The notes under the pieces: model-generated
Databases searched by the model: none
What the model saw: only the letters and a program-made list of their open reading frames with translations
Told to the model about the DNA's origin: nothing
Position numbers and translations under genes: made by a program
Shown here: positions 3,762 through 59,583 of the stretch, piece after piece
How positions within the stretch are numbered: the first letter of the stretch is position 1
Layout: each line of letters opens with the position of its first letter
IMG/VR virus record: IMGVR_UViG_3300049432_000036
Coordinates: 1-59,583 of that record
DNA length: 59,583 nt
Strand: one strand, 5' to 3'
Source of the DNA: a virus
Taxonomy: Duplodnaviria; Caudoviricetes

Positions 3762-5699
3762 GTGAAGGTGGTAGTGGAGAAGATCGGTAACCGCATCCAC
3801 CTGCGGTCGCCGTTCGAGTACAAGGACCGGGCCAAGGGACTGCCCGGCGCAAGGTGGTCGAAGAGCTCGAAGTCATGGACATATGCATGCGACCTTGAGA
3901 TCTGCCGAATGATGCGGGAAGAGTTCCGCGAGGAATTGGAGATTGGCCCTGAGTTGTTTGCATGGGCCCAAAATGAAGTCTCCCGCGAGCGCGCGGCTAC
4001 GACAATGCTCCGGGCAACAGGGGTCTCCTATGATGCGAAAAGTGTTGTTGTCCCTACGCGCGTAGAACGACTAACACCTAAAATCGCTTGGGGGTTCAGA
4101 GGTAAACCGTACCAAGTCCCGGGCGCGCGCTTCCTCGCGTACGCGAGGCAAGCACTGATTGCAGATGAACCGGGAATGGGTAAGACCATTCAAACTCTGG
4201 CCGCATTAGTGGAGAACCTTACCGAGGGCGGACGGGTGCTCGTGCTCGCTCCGAAGACCTCGGTGACCGCAGTTTGGCGGGAAGAGCTCCGCAAGTGGCT
4301 GGAGGGATTTGAGCACAGTGTCACGGTCCTCTCCGGCCTGACTCCGGCGAAAACCCAGGAACGGCTGGAGGAGTACGACGCCTTGCCGGACGACGGACGC
4401 TTGCATTTCCTCTTGGCCAACGCCGAGATTGTCCGCATCAAGTCCACCATGACCTGTACCCGCGTCGGCAGCGAGAAGGGCTGCGACGGAACGTACGAGT
4501 GGTGCGAGTTCGCCGACAAGCACAAAGGCGCGGTCGAGCCACGTCTGCCACAACTCTTCAAGCGGCAGTGGGACGCGATCGTGGCCGACGAAACCCACAA
4601 GTGGCTGATCAACACGAGGGGCAAGAAGGCGTCCCAGGTCGGCCGGGGATTCGTCGCGCTGAAGACCGTTGATGACGGCCTGCGGTACGCGCTGACCGGC
4701 ACACCCTACAAGGGCAAGAAGCACAACCTGTGGGGCACGCTCAACTGGCTCCGTCCGAAGGTCTACACCAGTAAGTGGAACTGGATCGAGCGGTATTTCG
4801 AGGTCCAGAAGACCGACTACAGCCGGGTGATCGGTGACATCATTCCGGAACGCGAGGAATCGCTCATGCGCAGCTTGGACGCGCTGTGTCTCCGGCGTAC
4901 CAAAGCTGAGATCAGGAAGATCAACCCCGACTGGATGCCGCCGGAGAAGATCTACCACCAGGTCAAGGTGCCGATGGATCCCAAGCAGGCCAAGGCGTAC
5001 AAGTCCATCACCCGGGACGCGGAGGTGAAGCTCAAGGGCGGAACCCTCACCGCCCTGGGCGTTCTCGCAGAGTTCACCCGGCTCAAGCAGTTCGCGTCCT
5101 GCTACGGCTACATCAACGACCGGGGCGAGTTCATGCCCAGCCTGCCATCTGGGAAGTTCGACTGGCTGTTGGAGTTCCTGGAGGAACGCGGCATCGAGAC
5201 CAAATCTGGGACGGCCAAGTATGGCGACCTGAGCGAGGAAGTTCACAAGGTGGTGATCGCCTCCCAGTTCACGAAGAACATCAATCTCTGGGCCGCTGAG
5301 TTGGTAGCGCGTGGCATCCCCTGCTACGTCCTGACCGGCCAGACCTCCGAAGGGAAACGGTCCGAGCTCGTCCGCCGGTTCCAGACCGACGACCGGCCGC
5401 GAGTCTTCCTCATCAACACGATGGCTGGTGGTGTATCGATCACCTTGGACGCAGCCGACGACGTTGTGATCATGGATGAGACGTGGATCCCGGATGACCA
5501 GTTGCAGGTTGAAGACCGGGCGCACCGCGCGTCGAACGTCAAGCACCAAGTTCATATCTGGTACGTACGTGCCGAAGACACGATCGAGGAGATGATTGCA
5601 GAGGCCAACTTTGCCAAGGCTGAAAGCAACTTTGTGATGCTCGACAAGAGGCGAGGTCTAGAGTTCGCCTCTGCGCAGTATGGGATTGACCCCAAGTAG
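3762..5699 (+). CDS. SNF2/SF2 DNA helicase
   Basis: ADEPGMGKT (motif I), VADETH (II), LTGTP (III), QVEDRAHR (VI). Confidence 0.92.
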   Translation: MKVVVEKIGNRIHLRSPFEYKDRAKGLPGARWSKSSKSWTYACDLEICRMMREEFREELEIGPELFAWAQNEVSRERAATTMLRATGVSYDAKSVVVPTRVERLTPKIAWGFRGKPYQVPGARFLAYARQALIADEPGMGKTIQTLAALVENLTEGGRVLVLAPKTSVTAVWREELRKWLEGFEHSVTVLSGLTPAKTQERLEEYDALPDDGRLHFLLANAEIVRIKSTMTCTRVGSEKGCDGTYEWCEFADKHKGAVEPRLPQLFKRQWDAIVADETHKWLINTRGKKASQVGRGFVALKTVDDGLRYALTGTPYKGKKHNLWGTLNWLRPKVYTSKWNWIERYFEVQKTDYSRVIGDIIPEREESLMRSLDALCLRRTKAEIRKINPDWMPPEKIYHQVKVPMDPKQAKAYKSITRDAEVKLKGGTLTALGVLAEFTRLKQFASCYGYINDRGEFMPSLPSGKFDWLLEFLEERGIETKSGTAKYGDLSEEVHKVVIASQFTKNINLWAAELVARGIPCYVLTGQTSEGKRSELVRRFQTDDRPRVFLINTMAGGVSITLDAADDVVIMDETWIPDDQLQVEDRAHRASNVKHQVHIWYVRAEDTIEEMIAEANFAKAESNFVMLDKRRGLEFASAQYGIDPK

Positions 5700-11584: not shown

Positions 11585-11642
11585 GTTCATCCCTACGCGC
11601 GTAACATAGCGCTCCTGACCCGATCCGTGATTGGGGGTGTTA

Positions 11643-55542: not shown

Positions 55543-56429
55543 CCGCGTATGCGTTGAGCGCCTTTGGCCCCAATCCCAACGCCGGTAAGTCGCCGAACGG
55601 CGCACAAGGTCGCGGTTGGGGTCCGGGTTGGCCGGATTGCCAGTCGAACAAGATGGTGAAGGTCACGAACGGCGACCACTCCGTCAACGTCCGGCGCGAG
55701 ATCGCCGAACTGGTCCTCACGCTGTTCCGGATTACGGCGCTGCGCGGATATGACATCAACCCGAAGGGCCAGCCGAACCAGACCTGGGGCTTCGCCTGCA
55801 GGGCTATAGCGAACACGCGTCGGGCATCGAACCACTCGTGGGGACTCGCGATCGACATCAACGCGCCGTCGAACCCCTACTCCATCACCTTCCACACGAA
55901 CATCCCGCCGCAGGTCGTGAACGACTGGGAGGTGTGTGGCTGGTACTGGGGCGGCCGGTACACCGTCAAGAAGGACACGATGCACTTCGAGTACATCGGC
56001 AATCCGACTTCCGTTGCCGGGCACTTGGCCAAGGCGAAGAGCATCCTCAACCAACTGCTCAACGCGTTGAAGCCTCCGGCGTCGAAGAACACCGTGAGCC
56101 TCAACTCCGTCGCATATGCGGCCAATGGTGGGTATTTACACTCCGGCCAGAAGGCTGCGGAGGACGACGCTCGTACGTGCCTGGAGTGGCTACACAACGT
56201 CCGGCACTACGCATCCGATCGAGACCTGCGGGTGTGGGAAGAGCGGCTGCGTATCGCCAAGGGCACGGACCGGCCGACCGATTGGAAGGCGGCGGGCGCG
56301 CAGTACGCCGGGATCATCAAGCGGTTCCAGCGCGTCCAAGGTCTCGCGGCTGACGGAGTCGTCGGCCCGCTCACGCGGTCGAAGCTTGCGGCCGCTATGA
56401 ACGCTGACAACTACCGCGTCAGCCTCTGA
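55539..56429 (+). CDS. Endolysin: M15 peptidase + peptidoglycan-binding domain
   Basis: SNHSWGLAIDIN, DTMHFE; C-terminal FQRVQGLAADGVVGPLT. Confidence 0.92.
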   Translation: MTAYALSAFGPNPNAGKSPNGAQGRGWGPGWPDCQSNKMVKVTNGDHSVNVRREIAELVLTLFRITALRGYDINPKGQPNQTWGFACRAIANTRRASNHSWGLAIDINAPSNPYSITFHTNIPPQVVNDWEVCGWYWGGRYTVKKDTMHFEYIGNPTSVAGHLAKAKSILNQLLNALKPPASKNTVSLNSVAYAANGGYLHSGQKAAEDDARTCLEWLHNVRHYASDRDLRVWEERLRIAKGTDRPTDWKAAGAQYAGIIKRFQRVQGLAADGVVGPLTRSKLAAAMNADNYRVSL

Positions 56430-56442
56430 AGGAGGAATGCAA

Positions 56443-56778
56443 ATGAGTAACAACGAACCGGTTCCATCCAGCAAGCCGAAGCCGGTAGTGTGGCTGGGCG
56501 GTATCGCTGCCGCTTGCACTGCCCTGGTGGGTATCCTGGCCCAGCCGGGTCTCAACGTGCCGCCGGTCGTGACCGCAGTTGTGGCCGGTATCGCGACGCT
56601 GTGCCTGGCCGTCGCTGGGTACATGACTCAGAACGTCACCGTCCCGGCGGCCAACGTCGCGGCGCGCTACATCAGCCAGACTGGTGAAGTCGTCGCCGGT
56701 CCGGCCGCGAAGCTCGTGGATGCGAGCGTGCGGGAGAACGATGCGGTACAGGTGACCTCGTTGCCGCCGACCGGCTAG
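56443..56778 (+). CDS. Holin
   Basis: Two TM helices, directly after endolysin; possible dual start MQM (56437/56443). Confidence 0.7.
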   Translation: MSNNEPVPSSKPKPVVWLGGIAAACTALVGILAQPGLNVPPVVTAVVAGIATLCLAVAGYMTQNVTVPAANVAARYISQTGEVVAGPAAKLVDASVRENDAVQVTSLPPTG

Positions 56779-56798
56779 CCGGTACCCTTGTAGTACTC

Positions 56799-56837
56799 GC
56801 GGCACCCAGCGGTTTCCTTCCTGACGCTGGGTGCCGC
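56799..56837 (+). terminator. Stem-loop ending lysis cassette
   Basis: 13-bp stem GCGGCACCCAGCG/CGCTGGGTGCCGC. Confidence 0.7.
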
Positions 56838-56902
56838 AGTTACGTTTACCGGAGTCCGGTATAGTTCCCGGACTTACTGCCCGCTGTGGCAAGACAGGAG
56901 GA

Positions 56903-57160
56903 ATGATGGCAAACGTCATCGACCGCATCCGGCTGACGCTGGACCCGCAGTCGGCCGCAAACGCCTTGTACGATGTGCTTTTGCAGTGGAAGAGGGCCGA
57001 CGACGAGTTGAGCGACATCCACACGCGTCGTAACCAGCGCCGCCGGGAGCTGTTCGCCCGCAGAGAAGCGTACGAGCGCGTTCTCGCAGCATTCATGGGG
57101 GTTACTCCCCAGAGCGTCCGACCGTTGCTGCGAGATCACTTCACGGAGCCGACCTCGTGA
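56903..57160 (+). CDS. Hypothetical protein
   Basis: AGGAGG RBS. Confidence 0.65.
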   Translation: MMANVIDRIRLTLDPQSAANALYDVLLQWKRADDELSDIHTRRNQRRRELFARREAYERVLAAFMGVTPQSVRPLLRDHFTEPTS

Positions 57161-57588
57161 CCGCCGAAGAAGACCTCAAGCTGCTGCTACAACTCGGCAC
57201 CGTCGACAACATCACGACAACGGCCCTGACCGACGCCGACCACATCGCCGGAGGCATCCCGAGATGGGCGGAGATCGTGGTGGATGTCGAGCGCGAAGGG
57301 AAGCTGCTGCGGCACTACTTCACGCGCCACGACGGCGAAGCGCTCGTGATGTCGGTACTCCGAGGGATGCACCCCCAGGCCGGTCGGCCGGTCGTCGGCT
57401 TCCTCTGGGAGAGGCTGGACGACTGCATGGTTGGCATCCTGGACGGCGAGATCGAGCCGGATGAGAAGCTTCGGTTCAAGGGCGAAGCGCTGGGACTCGC
57501 GTTCGCTATCGCGACCATCCGGCGACCACACGACCCGGACGTGGACGCTGTGCGCAAAGAGGCACGAGAGCGGTACGACGCGCGCTGA
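57157..57588 (+). CDS. Hypothetical protein
   Basis: GTGA overlap; 143 aa. Confidence 0.7.
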   Translation: MTAEEDLKLLLQLGTVDNITTTALTDADHIAGGIPRWAEIVVDVEREGKLLRHYFTRHDGEALVMSVLRGMHPQAGRPVVGFLWERLDDCMVGILDGEIEPDEKLRFKGEALGLAFAIATIRRPHDPDVDAVRKEARERYDAR

Positions 57589-57734
57589 CGCGTCAGTTAC
57601 TTGCAGTTACTGGCTACGGAGACTCACACATAAGCTGCATAACTCTCCGTAGTCGAAGGTAACGATCGTATTACGAGATCGCCCCGAGGGTGGTTTCGGC
57701 TTTGCGCTCCCTACGCGCGTAGGGTTAAGTCACT

Positions 57735-58198
57735 GTCACGGCCCCCGCTGTGGGGCTGCCTCGCTGAGAGAGCGGGCGCGCAACCTACGAGAGATACGGA
57801 CCGGCTAGTTGAGGTTCGGTAGCTCGCAGGGGATGGATCGAGAGATGGTGTCGGTCCGTAGCCCATACTCATCGGCCGGGAATCCGGGAAACTGGAATCG
57901 GCGGAGCCTGCCCTTAGGGAGAGGCTGAGCGGAGCGGAGAGGCACTAGCCCTCGTTGAGGCTCTAATCGGCACGCTACAAGGGAGAGACCGAAGTTGGTC
58001 TAAAGGACGGGTTGTAACACGAACCCCTTACCTGCCATCCACATCTACGGAACCGACTCTCATGGAGTTCGGCGCGGCCTAGGAAGCTACGAAATGACTT
58101 GCAGCCTGGCGGTTGTATCGCCCTCGAAGTCATGGAGAACTGAATAACGTCAACGAAACAAAGCAAGTTGGACGAATCGAAGCGGAGTTGATTCGTCC
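57735..58198 (+). ncRNA. Candidate large structured non-coding RNA (ends approximate)
   Basis: No credible ORF; about ten helices including two 11-bp stems, a GAAA tetraloop and long-range complementarity. Confidence 0.6.
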
Positions 58199-58272
58199 GG
58201 CCCCGTCGTACAAGCAGTAGCGCCAGGGGATGACCTTGGAGATGTCGGTATCGAATCCGACCGGGGCACGCA
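58199..58272 (+). tRNA. Degenerate tRNA-like element (pseudo-tRNA)
   Basis: Acceptor GCCCCG/CGGGGC; 5-7-5 arm CCAGG-GGATGAC-CTTGG; T-arm GTCGG-TATCGAAT-CCGAC; lacks U33, D-loop GG and CCA. Confidence 0.6.
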
Positions 58273-58297
58273 GATACCAACCGATAGGAGCTGCAAA

Positions 58298-58738
58298 ATG
58301 AAGATCAAGTTCATTGCCGAGTACACCGATGGCGTCTACACCTTCCTGGCGCTTGAGACCGGAGACCACCCGACTGGCTACTGTTCGGAGCAGGGTTGCA
58401 TGAACACCCCGAACAGCACCCTGTATGACGTTGAGGGCGACCCGATGTTGTTCTGCGCATACCACATCCAACGTCTCGACCAGGATGACGAGATGGGATG
58501 GAAGCGCGGCCGGACGATTTACCCGGTTGATGCCGATGGAGTCGAGGAGTGCTCGACCCCGGCGCAGATCGTCGCCGAATGGATCATCAACAACCCCGAG
58601 ATGTTCGTCGAGGTTGTGCCGATCCCGTTCAAGGAGATCGTTGCGGAAGACGAGAAGCGCGAGGGCATGCGCGACTGTAAGGGACGCGGGCCGGATCACC
58701 CGCAGTTCGACCCGGAGCAAGCCTACAACTTCAGCTAG
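58298..58738 (+). CDS. Hypothetical early protein with Cys/His motif
   Basis: AGGAG RBS; CSEQGC...FCAYH. Confidence 0.75.
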   Translation: MKIKFIAEYTDGVYTFLALETGDHPTGYCSEQGCMNTPNSTLYDVEGDPMLFCAYHIQRLDQDDEMGWKRGRTIYPVDADGVEECSTPAQIVAEWIINNPEMFVEVVPIPFKEIVAEDEKREGMRDCKGRGPDHPQFDPEQAYNFS

Positions 58739-58793
58739 GTCGAAACGGGGCCATTGGCCCCGTCGTCGCGTAGATGCGCGGCCTGACGAGACC
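58738..58793 (+). ncRNA. Type II hammerhead ribozyme
   Basis: GGTC-GAAA-[CGGGGCC att GGCCCCG]-TC^-[GTCGCGT agat GCGCGGC]-CTGACGA-GACC: complete catalytic core with three closed stems. Confidence 0.9.
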
Positions 58794-58816
58794 GTACCAA
58801 ACAGGAAGGCATTACC

Positions 58817-59509
58817 ATGGCAAACACGACTGCGCGGACTCGCAAGGCCGTCGCCGCAACGAAGACCGCTACTGCGAACATCACCGCCGCACGGAAGGCC
58901 GTAGCGAAGAAGACTGCGGCAGCGCCGGTCGGCGACAAGCCGAAGAAGGAGCAGACCTTCGAGGAGCGCGACTGGACATACTTGGACGACAAGCCACCCA
59001 GCGAGCAGCACGAGATCCTGGCCAAGGAGATCAACCGCCGGACGAACCTGGTGGATGACGACGGCGAGGACACGCCGATCAGCCCGAAGCAGGTCCAGGC
59101 CGTTCTCGCGATGTTCCCGCACTTCCAGCGGTCGGCGACGAACAAGGCCCGCGCCGGTTACCACCCGCTTGCCGCAGAGATCGTGGAGAAGCGTTCGGAG
59201 CACATGACCCTGGCGCACAAGGAAGCACGGGAGATCATGGACGGACTGGCCCAGGAAGTGGCCAAGAAGGCTCCGGCCAAGAAGACCGCAACCCCGAAGG
59301 CCAACCCGGCCGGAGCGGCCAAGGCTGTGGCCAAGCGGGCCGCGAGCCCGAAGCTCAACACCGAGACCCGGCCGTCAACTCCGGCCAATCCCGCGCCGAC
59401 CGCCCCGCTTCCCCACAACGGCAAGGCTCCGGCTCGCAAGGCGCGGGTCACCAAGAAGACCGCCGCGCCGGTCCCCGCGTCCCTGGCTAGCTCCAACGAA
59501 GCGTTCTGA
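58817..59509 (+). CDS. Ala/Lys-rich histone-like early protein
   Basis: AKK/PAKK-rich arms around a folded core; AGGAAGG RBS. Confidence 0.8.
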   Translation: MANTTARTRKAVAATKTATANITAARKAVAKKTAAAPVGDKPKKEQTFEERDWTYLDDKPPSEQHEILAKEINRRTNLVDDDGEDTPISPKQVQAVLAMFPHFQRSATNKARAGYHPLAAEIVEKRSEHMTLAHKEAREIMDGLAQEVAKKAPAKKTATPKANPAGAAKAVAKRAASPKLNTETRPSTPANPAPTAPLPHNGKAPARKARVTKKTAAPVPASLASSNEAF

Positions 59510-59583
59510 GAGGAACTGAAATGCGATTCATCACCAAGGCGAAGTACGCACTCATGATCGTGGCCGTAACGGCCAGCATGGGT
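59457..59583. repeat. 127-bp terminal direct repeat (copy 2)
   Basis: Identical to 1-127. Confidence 0.95.

What the first reader, a model, noticed from the sequence alone, without database searches (positions are those of the whole stretch)
57589..58816. Candidate RNA-based system at the head of the early operon: large structured RNA + tRNA mimic + self-cleaving ribozyme
Seen: the longest ORF-free stretch in the genome (57589-58297) is almost entirely base-paired. It is followed with no spacer by a tRNA-shaped element (58199-58272), one small gene, and then a full hammerhead (58738-58793) just upstream of the histone-like gene. Established: tRNA-like folds are cut by RNase P/Z, hammerheads self-cleave leaving a 5'-OH, and phages carry large ornate RNAs (GOLLD, ROOL) often next to tRNAs. 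Inference: one early transcript is cut by RNA-encoded signals into a discrete large RNA (3' end made at the tRNA mimic, as in MALAT1/mascRNA), a mono-cistronic mRNA, and a 5'-OH-stabilised downstream early mRNA.
Basis: partly seen in the sequence, partly recalled or inferred. Interest (0 to 1): 0.88.

Follow-up and report, generated by a model that had tools for sequence, protein, structure and literature searches.

The report
Phage structured RNA, tRNA mimic, hammerhead
Between the late and early genes of an uncultured soil phage lies a conserved folded non-coding RNA that ends in a stripped-down tRNA look-alike and is followed by a self-cutting hammerhead ribozyme, which looks like RNA-encoded cutting signals attached to a possibly new large phage RNA.

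Summary
All three elements are real, lie at the stated coordinates on the + strand, and recur in related uncultured phages.

- **Hammerhead (58738-58793).** It has a canonical type II core. It scores 30.7 bits, below Rfam's cut-off of 37. In 2 relatives all 56 of 56 pair cells form and 3 pairs show compensatory changes.
- **tRNA-shaped element (58200-58268).** ARAGORN and Rfam do not call it a tRNA. A covariance model built only from 4 relatives finds it at E=1.3e-6. Together with the hairpin before it, 17 of 29 pairs covary.
- **ORF-free stretch (57589-58297).** It is by far the longest in the genome. The single sequence folds no better than shuffles (z -1.45). The 5-phage alignment shows conserved structure (z -7.3; coding control +2.2). 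That signal sits in a core of about 305 nt (57698-58002) and in the 3' module, not across the whole stretch.

No Rfam family matches; GOLLD and ROOL are in Rfam 15. No RNA data exist, so transcription and cutting remain inferred. One relative lacks the hammerhead, and there the tRNA mimic sits directly before the same gene. This fits both elements being processing signals. An invariant palindrome inside the region recurs elsewhere in these genomes and may act on DNA.

Verdict: a candidate new phage RNA class with known kinds of punctuation. The scan has noted similar punctuation in other phages.

The parts
57596..57697 (+). 5' block with conserved sequence (GTTACTTGCAGTTAC, TCACACATA, CTCCGTAG, GTAACGAT..ATTACG) and no significant conserved structure. 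It could be a promoter or operator, or the 5' leader.
   Evidence: Alignment A4. Block test gives z -0.7 for energy and 0.9 for double changes. The promoter scan found 0 sigma-70-like sites.
57698..57908 (+). Long-range helix GGCUUUGCGC (57698-57707) with CGGCGGAGCC (57899-57908). It closes the first domain.
   Evidence: Helix 6: 9 pairs, 91% of cells paired. Three pairs change on one side only, always to G-U (C-G to U-G, U-A to U-G). There are no double changes, so support is moderate.
57708..57725 (+). Invariant palindrome TCCCTACGCGCGTAGGG. It is either a hairpin CCCUAC-GCGC-GUAGGG in RNA or a protein-binding site in DNA.
   Evidence: Invariant in 5 of 5 sequences. TCCCTACGCGCGTA occurs 3 times in the window, all on the + strand, against 0.31 expected, and 3-4 times in each of 2 complete relatives.
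57883..57896 (+). Hairpin UCCGG-GAAA-CUGGA. The loop is GAAA or GCAA in 4 of 5 sequences and GAAG in L130.
   Evidence: Helix 13: 100% of cells paired, 4 of 5 pairs invariant. The hairpin sits in the most conserved hub.
57911..57983 (+). Branched domain closed by the best-supported helix of the body (57911-57929 with 57966-57983).
   Evidence: Helix 14: 15 pairs, 10 with changes on both sides, 94.5% of cells paired. Soil contigs show A57940-U57952 going to G-U and to G-C.
57986..58002 (+). Hairpin AGACC-loop-GGUCU.
   Evidence: Helix 17: 3 of 5 pairs with double changes (ACC/GGU, AGCC/GGCU, AGC/GCU).
58003..58167 (+). Variable linker. It aligns poorly and has only weak conserved structure.
   Evidence: Block test z -2.0. 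Single-sequence folds differ between phages.
58170..58198 (+). Hairpin of 10-11 bp with the invariant loop G(A/C)AGCGGAGUU. It ends 1 nt before the tRNA-like acceptor.
   Evidence: MFE folds of all 5 sequences. Helix 1: 10 pairs, 5 with double changes, 100% of cells paired.
58200..58268 (+). tRNA-like three-way junction. Acceptor 58200-05/58262-67; arm 58223-39; T arm 58244-48/58257-61 with the 8-nt loop UAUCGAAU; then A58268 and CGC. The predicted RNase P cut is just 5' of G58200.
   Evidence: Model R1, built from 4 relatives only, hits 58168-58271 at 45.5 bits, E=1.3e-6. Acceptor: 4 of 6 pairs with double changes; T stem: 2 of 5. ARAGORN and Rfam are negative.
58298..58738 (+). Small ORF of 146 aa, Cys-rich, with no known family. 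It is a variable cassette: relatives carry a homologue (L130, L002), other ORFs (L004) or nothing (L005).
58738..58793 (+). Type II hammerhead. Stem II is GGUC (58738-41) with GACC (58790-93). GAAA is at 58742-45. Stem III is 58745-52 with 58756-63. The cut falls after C58764. Stem I is 58765-70 with 58777-82. CUGACGA is at 58783-89.
   Evidence: Rfam RF02276 gives 30.7 bits, E=7.6e-4. The three-sequence alignment has 56 of 56 cells paired, 3 pairs with double changes and a paired 2-bp insertion in stem III.
58803..59509 (+). Shine-Dalgarno AGGAAGG (58803-09) and the gene for a 230-aa protein rich in Ala and Lys (ATG at 58817). This is the gene that always follows the hammerhead or, in L005, the tRNA mimic.
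   Evidence: No family was found.

Best explanation
The + strand between the lysis genes and the replication genes of this siphovirus encodes non-coding RNA elements that selection keeps at the RNA level. There are three.

1. A structured RNA body: a core of about 305 nt at 57698-58002, followed by a variable linker.
2. A 3' module: a long hairpin with an invariant loop, followed after one nucleotide by a tRNA look-alike without a D arm (6-bp acceptor stem, 5-bp T stem, T-loop-like loop, one extra arm).
3. A canonical type II hammerhead, placed after an optional small-ORF cassette and 52 nt before the start codon of the Ala/Lys-rich protein gene.

Proposed mechanism (inferred, not shown): the region is transcribed rightwards with the early genes. 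Host RNase P cuts 5' of the tRNA mimic, and RNase Z or another nuclease cuts 3' of it. This releases the upstream RNA with a hairpin flush at its 3' end, which would shield it from 3' exonucleases. The hammerhead cuts itself after C58764. The downstream mRNA then starts with a 5'-OH at the foot of the stem I hairpin, a poor substrate for 5'-end-dependent RNases. The tRNA mimic and the hammerhead are therefore interchangeable punctuation marks, and the body is a separate, stable phage RNA of unknown function.
For: Shown here:
- Conserved structure in 5 phages that share about 61% identity: RNAalifold z -7.3, with 45 double-change pairs against 22.8 +/- 5.1. The coding control gives z +2.2. The body without the 3' module still gives z -4.7.
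- On the RNAalifold structure, 49 of 151 pairs have double changes, against 25.9 +/- 3.3 in shuffles (0 of 500 reach it) and 7-19 when partners are slid.
- In the 3' module, 137 of 138 cells pair and 17 of 29 pairs have double changes, against 6.6 +/- 1.8 in shuffles and 0-2 when slid.
- A model built without the window finds the window's module at E=1.3e-6. It finds nothing at E<=1 in 890,585 bases from 100 unrelated phage loci.
- The hammerhead core is complete, and its stems covary in 3 phages.
- Strand: the T-loop motif UUCRAGU, the hammerhead and all genes read on +. Single-sided changes in helix 6 keep G-U only on +. RNAalifold energy is -110.5 on + and -103.1 on -.
- In L005 the tRNA mimic sits directly before the same gene that the hammerhead precedes elsewhere.
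- The stretch is non-coding. It is the longest ORF-free run, and the alignment has many 1-2-nt indels.

From the literature:
- Hammerheads flank genes in prophages and are thought to cut long phage transcripts (PMC3088659, passages read).
- tRNA-like t-elements mark mRNA ends made by RNase P or Z (PMC1920247, abstract read).
- GOLLD and ROOL are large phage RNAs found near tRNAs or linked to them (bioRxiv 10.1101/2024.12.08.627333, passages read).
Against: - There is no expression or end-mapping evidence of any kind.
- The single sequence folds no better than its shuffles.
- Only 5 distinct sequences were available. The structure tested was predicted from the same alignment, and the alignment used was fitted to the model, so both counts lean towards the structure.
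- The reverse complement also folds well (-97.5, 40 double changes).
- The 5' 100 nt show no structural signal.
- The palindrome inside the 'RNA' recurs at two other + strand sites in the window, as a DNA-binding site would. If it marks a promoter, helix 6 and the 5' block are not part of the RNA.
- The tRNA mimic has 11 rather than 12 stacked pairs, has A or G rather than U at -1, and has no CCA, so RNase P cleavage is not assured.
- The hammerhead is below Rfam's cut-off, and I found no convincing loop I/tail pseudoknot.
- Two relatives have an extra U between CUGACGA and stem II. Rfam did not report them at E<=1.
Confidence: 0.45

Rival explanations
1. The whole stretch is a long structured 5' leader of the early operon and is never released as a discrete RNA. 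It would act in cis, for example in antitermination, as a transcription or translation switch, or as a protein-binding platform. The tRNA mimic and the hammerhead would only trim the leader off the mRNAs.
For: The region sits directly upstream of the early genes on the same strand, and neither a sigma-70-like promoter nor a + strand terminator-like site was found within it (the three terminator-like hits in 56400-59583 are all on the - strand). In L005 the mimic lies 40 nt before the start codon of the conserved gene. The same RBS context, AACAGGAAGGCAAGAYCATG, follows the mimic or the hammerhead in every phage.
Against: A hairpin that ends flush with the predicted cut, conserved in all 5 with covariation, looks like a protective 3' end for a product that is kept. 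In 4 of 5 relatives a GC-rich hairpin follows the mimic and could end an RNA gene. A core of 300 nt or more is large for known cis leaders.
Confidence: 0.25
2. Much of the conservation is at DNA level. The 5' block and the TCCCTACGCGCGTA palindrome would be operator, promoter or origin elements at the late/early boundary. Only the tRNA mimic module and the hammerhead would be functional RNAs.
For: The 5' block has conserved sequence without conserved structure (z -0.7). The palindrome is invariant and recurs 3 times in the window against 0.31 expected, once in the gap before the primase gene, and 3-4 times in each relative. In L130 the first inverted repeat carries the reverse complement of L004's centre, as a symmetric DNA site would.
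Against: The central block 57698-58002 has its own structural signal (z -4.1; 21 double changes against 10.6 +/- 3.4, maximum 18). Helix 14 has 10 of 15 pairs compensated, which DNA-binding sites do not explain. No promoter-like site was found.
Confidence: 0.2
3. The elements are relics or chance: a decayed tRNA gene and a chance hammerhead-like motif in GC-rich non-coding DNA, with no function.
For: ARAGORN and Rfam reject the tRNA. The hammerhead is below the gathering score. The window's middle arm differs from that of the relatives.
Against: Acceptor, T arm and hairpin stay paired through 17 double changes across 5 phages. The hammerhead keeps every core base and 56 of 56 paired cells, and sits at the same gene boundary in 3 phages.
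Confidence: 0.03

Closest known systems
Type II hammerhead ribozymes of phages and prophages (Rfam RF02276; Perreault et al. 2011, PMC3088659)
   Same: The topology is the same (open stem II, closed stems I and III). The core is complete: CUGANGA, GAAA, A15.1-U16.1, C17, G10.1-C11.1. It lies in a phage, between genes.
   Different: It scores 30.7 bits, below the cut-off of 37. I found no clear loop I/3'-tail pseudoknot. Only one copy is present in the genome, whereas the paper describes several flanking a gene. Two relatives carry an extra U next to stem II.
tRNA-like processing signals: plant mitochondrial t-elements (Forner et al. 2007, PMC1920247) and MALAT1/mascRNA (e.g. PMC8457004, listing and start of abstract seen)
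   Same: A non-decoding tRNA-shaped fold sits at the 3' end of a long non-coding RNA or at mRNA ends, where RNase P or RNase Z would cut. As with MALAT1, a conserved structure lies just upstream and would protect the new 3' end.
   Different: This one is bacterial and phage-encoded. The protecting element is a plain hairpin rather than a triple helix. The mimic has no D arm and a 6-nt conserved loop (CGGUAA) in 4 relatives. No cleavage data exist.
GOLLD (RF01998) and ROOL (RF03087) large ornate phage RNAs
   Same: All are large, phage-encoded, non-coding RNAs with covarying structure and unknown function. GOLLD and ROOL lie near tRNAs, and GOLLD sometimes holds tRNAs in its linker.
   Different: Rfam 15, which lists both families, reported no family other than Hammerhead_II and two snoRNA chance hits at E<=10 on 57400-59000 and none relevant in relatives. 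The host range differs (GC-rich soil phages distantly related to a Tsukamurella phage). Conserved structure was shown for only about 300 nt plus the 3' module.
Canonical tRNA (RF00005)
   Same: In relatives the T arm has G53-C61 and the loop UUCRAGU. The acceptor stem is followed by an unpaired A. The junction geometry is tRNA-like.
   Different: There is no D arm and no 7-nt anticodon loop with U33. The acceptor has 6 bp and there is no CCA. ARAGORN and Rfam do not detect it.

Membership tests
Hammerhead ribozyme, type II (RF02276) | Conserved core: C3-U4-G5-A6-N7-G8-A9, G12-A13-A14, A15.1-U16.1, H17, G10.1-C11.1 | tested here: met
   Read: CUGACGA at 58783-89, GAAA at 58742-45, GUC then the cut at 58762-64, G58790-C58741. 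The core is invariant in 3 of 3 sequences. L002 and L004 have an extra U after A9.
Hammerhead ribozyme, type II (RF02276) | Three stems, with I and III closed by loops and II open | tested here: met
   20 pairs with 56 of 56 cells paired, 3 pairs with double changes, and a paired 2-bp insertion.
Hammerhead ribozyme, type II (RF02276) | Score at or above Rfam's gathering threshold | tested here: not met
   30.7 bits against 37. Relatives were not reported at E<=1.
Hammerhead ribozyme, type II (RF02276) | Tertiary contact between stem I and the stem II side (a pseudoknot in most type II examples) | tested here: inconclusive
   Inspection by eye found at most 3 possible pairs, and these are not conserved. 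The paper says only about 40% of hammerheads use a pseudoknot.
Hammerhead ribozyme, type II (RF02276) | Self-cleavage | not testable with these tools
   This needs in vitro transcription with Mg2+.
tRNA (RF00005) | Cloverleaf with a D arm and a 7-nt anticodon loop (U33) | tested here: not met
   In relatives, 1-2 nt join the acceptor and the arm, and the loop is CGGUAA. In the window the loop is GGAUGAC with no U33, and the D hairpin has only 2 bp.
tRNA (RF00005) | Detected by tRNA finders or models | tested here: not met
   ARAGORN finds 0 in the window and in 4 loci. Rfam gives no tRNA or tmRNA hit at E<=10.
tRNA-like processing element (t-element / mascRNA type) | Coaxial acceptor-T minihelix with a T-loop-like loop and no decoding features | tested here: met
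   6 + 5 bp with the loop UUCRAGU (UAUCGAAU in the window). Covariation in 6 of 11 pairs.
tRNA-like processing element (t-element / mascRNA type) | RNA ends made by RNase P or Z at the element | not testable with these tools
   No RNA run holds the sequence.
GOLLD / ROOL | Match to the family covariance model | tested here: not met
   These families are not among the matches at E<=10 on 57400-59000, at E<=1 over the whole window, or in relatives.
GOLLD / ROOL | Large phage-encoded RNA next to a tRNA or a tRNA-like element | tested here: met
   This is a likeness of context, not membership.
Bacterial Y RNA (YrlA) with Rsr | Ro/Rsr (TROVE) gene in the genome | tested here: not met
   PF05731 gives 0 matches in the window, while the control genomes ring.

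The most novel reading that the evidence does not exclude
The body (57698-58167) together with its tRNA-like handle is a new class of large phage RNA that acts in trans. It would be analogous to GOLLD with its linked tRNAs. It might form an RNA-only assembly. Alternatively, it might present a tRNA-shaped decoy to host tRNA-directed enzymes or defences early in infection. The invariant loops (GMAGCGGAGUU, CGGUAA) would be the contact points.
Probability: 0.15. Interest if true: 0.85.

Novelty: new variant of a known kind. Interest (0 to 1): 0.6.

Why it matters
Large structured phage RNAs such as GOLLD and ROOL are few, and their functions are unknown. A further class, from GC-rich soil phages of probable actinobacterial hosts, would widen that set. 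This one carries a built-in tRNA-shaped 3' module and a neighbouring ribozyme. It would also give a compact system for asking how such RNAs get their ends.

The tRNA mimic and the hammerhead occupy the same place before one conserved gene in different relatives. This adds a case to the idea that phages punctuate operons with interchangeable RNA-encoded cutting signals, much as mitochondria use tRNAs and t-elements.

The elements are short enough for direct in vitro tests.

Tried and rejected
**Searches for close or cultured relatives**
- blastn in 'distant' mode with 57400-59000 against GenBank phages found no match.
- tblastn with the 146-aa ORF found none.
- tblastn with the 143-aa protein found only Tsukamurella phage TIN2 (40% identity over 46% of the query, 2 records of one phage). 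Its neighbourhood is not syntenic.

**Searches for more homologues of the RNA**
- Three DNA patterns in IMG/VR returned only the same 3 relatives. One search also returned L007, an unrelated phage that shares only the 17-mer; I judged this chance-level.
- Genome contigs gave nothing, either by pattern or by protein profile.
- The metagenome scan gave 2 loci. One of them, L131, has the same ORFs and motif spacing as L004, and I counted the two as one sequence.
- The 143-aa protein has 34 relatives in the protein collection, 11 of them on contigs of 10 kb or more.

**Expression**
- No RNA holder is listed among the 9 runs.
- The laid runs are contigs only and cannot show RNA ends. The parts without cover there (58177-58260, 58303-58512) are told here only. 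Table 3 of that call leaves 44 differences unshown, so I used a single pair from it.

**Other checks that led nowhere**
- No TROVE/Rsr and no CCA-adding enzyme family, so a Y-RNA or tRNA-repair reading was dropped.
- The repeat ATATCGGACGC, which relatives carry just after the 143-aa gene, is not enriched in the window (12 matches against 17.2 expected) and not elsewhere in the relatives.
- The promoter scan found 0 sites. My by-eye promoter candidates around the palindrome are not conserved.
- The flanking proteins match nothing in Pfam, PHROGs (except phrog_5406, of unknown function), NCBIfam or the Atlas.
- My crude codon-usage gene call ranked the stretch only second. The larger gap holds ORFs listed that my threshold dropped. 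One search replaces it.
- The G-U against A-C count is biased towards the strand on which the structure was predicted, so it is only weak support for the + strand.
- I recall, from no call, that an extra base between A9 and G10.1 occurs in some viroid hammerheads.
- Supplements of PMC3088659 (hammerhead alignments) were not opened and may hold related phage examples.
Full report
**Setting.** The window is a complete IMG/VR virus record of 59,583 bp with terminal repeats, so the map is circular. All called genes read on the + strand. Helicase, primase and a DnaE-type polymerase lie at 3.7-22 kb. Terminase, portal, head proteins and the tape measure lie at 31-47 kb. A collagen-like tail fibre and an endolysin lie at 54.2-56.4 kb. 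The finding therefore sits between the last late genes and the genes that lead, across the record's end, into the replication module. The only cultured phage with any protein match is Tsukamurella phage TIN2. That match is weak and not syntenic. Runs that hold the sequence are labelled soil metagenomes.

**Observation.** 57589-58297 has no + strand ORF above 39 aa. It is by far the longest + strand stretch without an ORF of 50-80 aa: 645-709 nt, against 183-234 nt for the next. As a single sequence it does not fold better than its shuffles (z -1.45; minus strand -1.51), so 'almost entirely base-paired' is not more than chance on that test. ARAGORN finds no tRNA. Rfam finds nothing at gathering level. 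With E-values, Rfam finds one meaningful hit: Hammerhead_II at 58738-58800, 30.7 bits against a cut-off of 37, E=7.6e-4 in 1.6 kb and 0.028 over the window.

**Relatives.** Protein-anchored and pattern scans gave four further distinct sequences. L002 and L005 come from complete 60-61-kb phages. L004 comes from a 16.7-kb fragment and L130 from a metagenome contig. L131 duplicates L004. All four keep the order 143-aa gene, non-coding region, Ala/Lys-rich gene.
- Between the non-coding region and that gene, the window and L130 carry homologous small ORFs.
- L002 carries two ORFs there, one of them homologous.
- L004 carries other ORFs.
- L005 carries nothing.

Contigs of closer relatives from three other studies cover 57589-58161 and 58735-58830. 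They replace the tRNA-like part (80 letters in place of 104) or the whole span from 58161 to 58761 (184 letters), which confirms that the middle is a variable cassette.

**Hammerhead.** The window's element has every core base and the type II topology. It starts on the last base of the upstream stop codon, and the predicted cut is after C58764. In the three-sequence alignment with L002 and L004, all 56 pair cells form. Three pairs change on both sides, and stem III of L002 gains two paired bases. With three sequences the shuffle control is weak: 18 of 500 shuffles reach the observed value. L130 shows the first bases of the motif before its locus ends. L005 has none. L002 and L004 have an extra U between CUGACGA and stem II, and Rfam did not report them at E<=1; their activity is open. 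A pattern for this exact stem II hits more than 119 IMG/VR contigs. The literature already places type II hammerheads around genes of prophages. This part is therefore a new member of a known kind.

**3' module.** MFE folds of all five sequences give the same picture. A 10-12-bp hairpin carries the loop G(A/C)AGCGGAGUU. After one or two bases comes a three-way junction made of a 6-bp acceptor stem, an arm and a T arm. An unpaired A and CG(A/G/C) follow. In the four relatives the T arm is GCCCG-UUCRAGU-CGGGC and the arm ends in the loop CGGUAA.

I built a covariance model from the four relatives only. It finds the window's copy at 58168-58271 with 45.5 bits, E=1.3e-6, aligning the hairpin, acceptor, T arm and tail and skipping a different middle arm. 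It finds nothing at E<=1 in 890,585 bases from 100 unrelated phage loci. On the model-fitted alignment, 137 of 138 cells pair. Seventeen of 29 pairs change on both sides, against 6.6 +/- 1.8 in shuffles (0 of 500) and 0-2 when partners are slid. That alignment leans towards the structure.

The element is not a tRNA. It has no D arm and no anticodon loop, and no tRNA or tmRNA hit appears even in a 151-nt Rfam search. The genome has no Rsr and no CCA-adding enzyme family.

**Body.** On the MAFFT alignment of the five (61% mean identity), RNAalifold predicts 151 pairs, 49 of them with double changes. Shuffles give 25.9 +/- 3.3 and slid partners 7-19. Because the structure comes from the same alignment, I added column shuffles: energy -106.0 against -64.4 +/- 5.7 (z -7.3, 132 shuffles) and 45 doubles against 22.8 +/- 5.1. 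The neighbouring coding gene treated the same way gives z +2.2. By block:
- The 5' 100 nt carry no structural signal (z -0.7).
- 57698-58002 does (z -4.1; 21 doubles against 10.6 +/- 3.4).
- 58003-58169 does so weakly (z -2.0).
- The body without the 3' module still gives z -4.7.

The best helix (57911-29 with 57966-83) has 10 of 15 pairs compensated. In soil contigs, A57940-U57952 becomes G-U and G-C. A long-range helix (57698-707 with 57899-908) changes only to G-U, which fits the + strand but is weaker evidence. The reverse complement also folds well. The strand therefore rests mainly on the T-loop, the hammerhead and the gene direction.

**A complication.** The invariant palindrome at 57708-25 recurs as TCCCTACGCGCGTA inside the helicase gene and in the gap before the primase gene. 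That makes 3 sites against 0.31 expected, all on +. It also recurs 3-4 times in each of two relatives. This looks like a DNA site for a regulator. If a promoter lies there, the RNA starts after it. No sigma-70-like promoter was found.

**Reading.** The data show RNA-level selection on a core, on a hairpin plus tRNA mimic, and on a hammerhead. The rest is inferred: that the mimic is cut by RNase P or Z, that the hairpin then caps a released RNA, and that the hammerhead gives the next mRNA a protected 5'-OH end. Three things support the inference. The geometry fits. In L005 the mimic takes the hammerhead's place before the same gene. There are also known precedents: t-elements, mascRNA (listing) and phage hammerheads. 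Earlier notes of this scan describe similar punctuation in other phages. They are leads, not evidence. What the body does is unknown. It matches no Rfam family.

**Score.** The hammerhead is ordinary and the tRNA-like punctuation is a known kind. The conserved body with its tRNA-shaped end is a candidate new class, but it rests on five sequences and no RNA data. Interest 0.6.

Noticed in passing
window 4051-4064, 11590-11603, 57708-57721: TCCCTACGCGCGTA occurs three times, always on the + strand. One copy is inside the helicase gene and one is in the 158-nt gap before the primase gene. Related phages carry 3-4 copies each. It is probably a regulator binding site.
   Followed up: partly
L002 2531-2595, L004 4427-4490, L005 4427-4500, L130 3921-3985: Relatives carry about 60 extra bases right after the 143-aa gene. 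These bases hold two copies of ATA(T/G)CGGACG and a TTGCA(C/T) motif. The window lacks this segment.
   Followed up: partly
L130 4665-4692; window 58797-58819; L005 5190-5214: The same ribosome-binding context, AACAGGAAGGCAAGAYCATG, precedes the small ORF in L130 and the Ala/Lys-rich gene in all phages. It looks as if the small ORF plus hammerhead had been inserted as a cassette that duplicated the leader.
   Followed up: no
L002 3252-3275, L004 5219-5241, L005 5171-5195, L130 4649-4668: In the four relatives a GC-rich hairpin without a U tract follows the tRNA mimic. The window has none. It could be a terminator of actinobacterial type or a further processing or stability element.
   Followed up: no
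L007 770-900: An unrelated 59-kb phage carries the identical 17-base palindrome in an intergenic region, flanked by repeats of CGTCATTGCGTC. No other similarity to the window was found.
   Followed up: partly
window 57157-57588: The 143-aa protein just upstream has 34 relatives at 52-99% identity in metagenomes. Its only family match is phrog_5406, of unknown function. It has many invariant Asp, His and Arg residues and always precedes the RNA region.
   Followed up: partly
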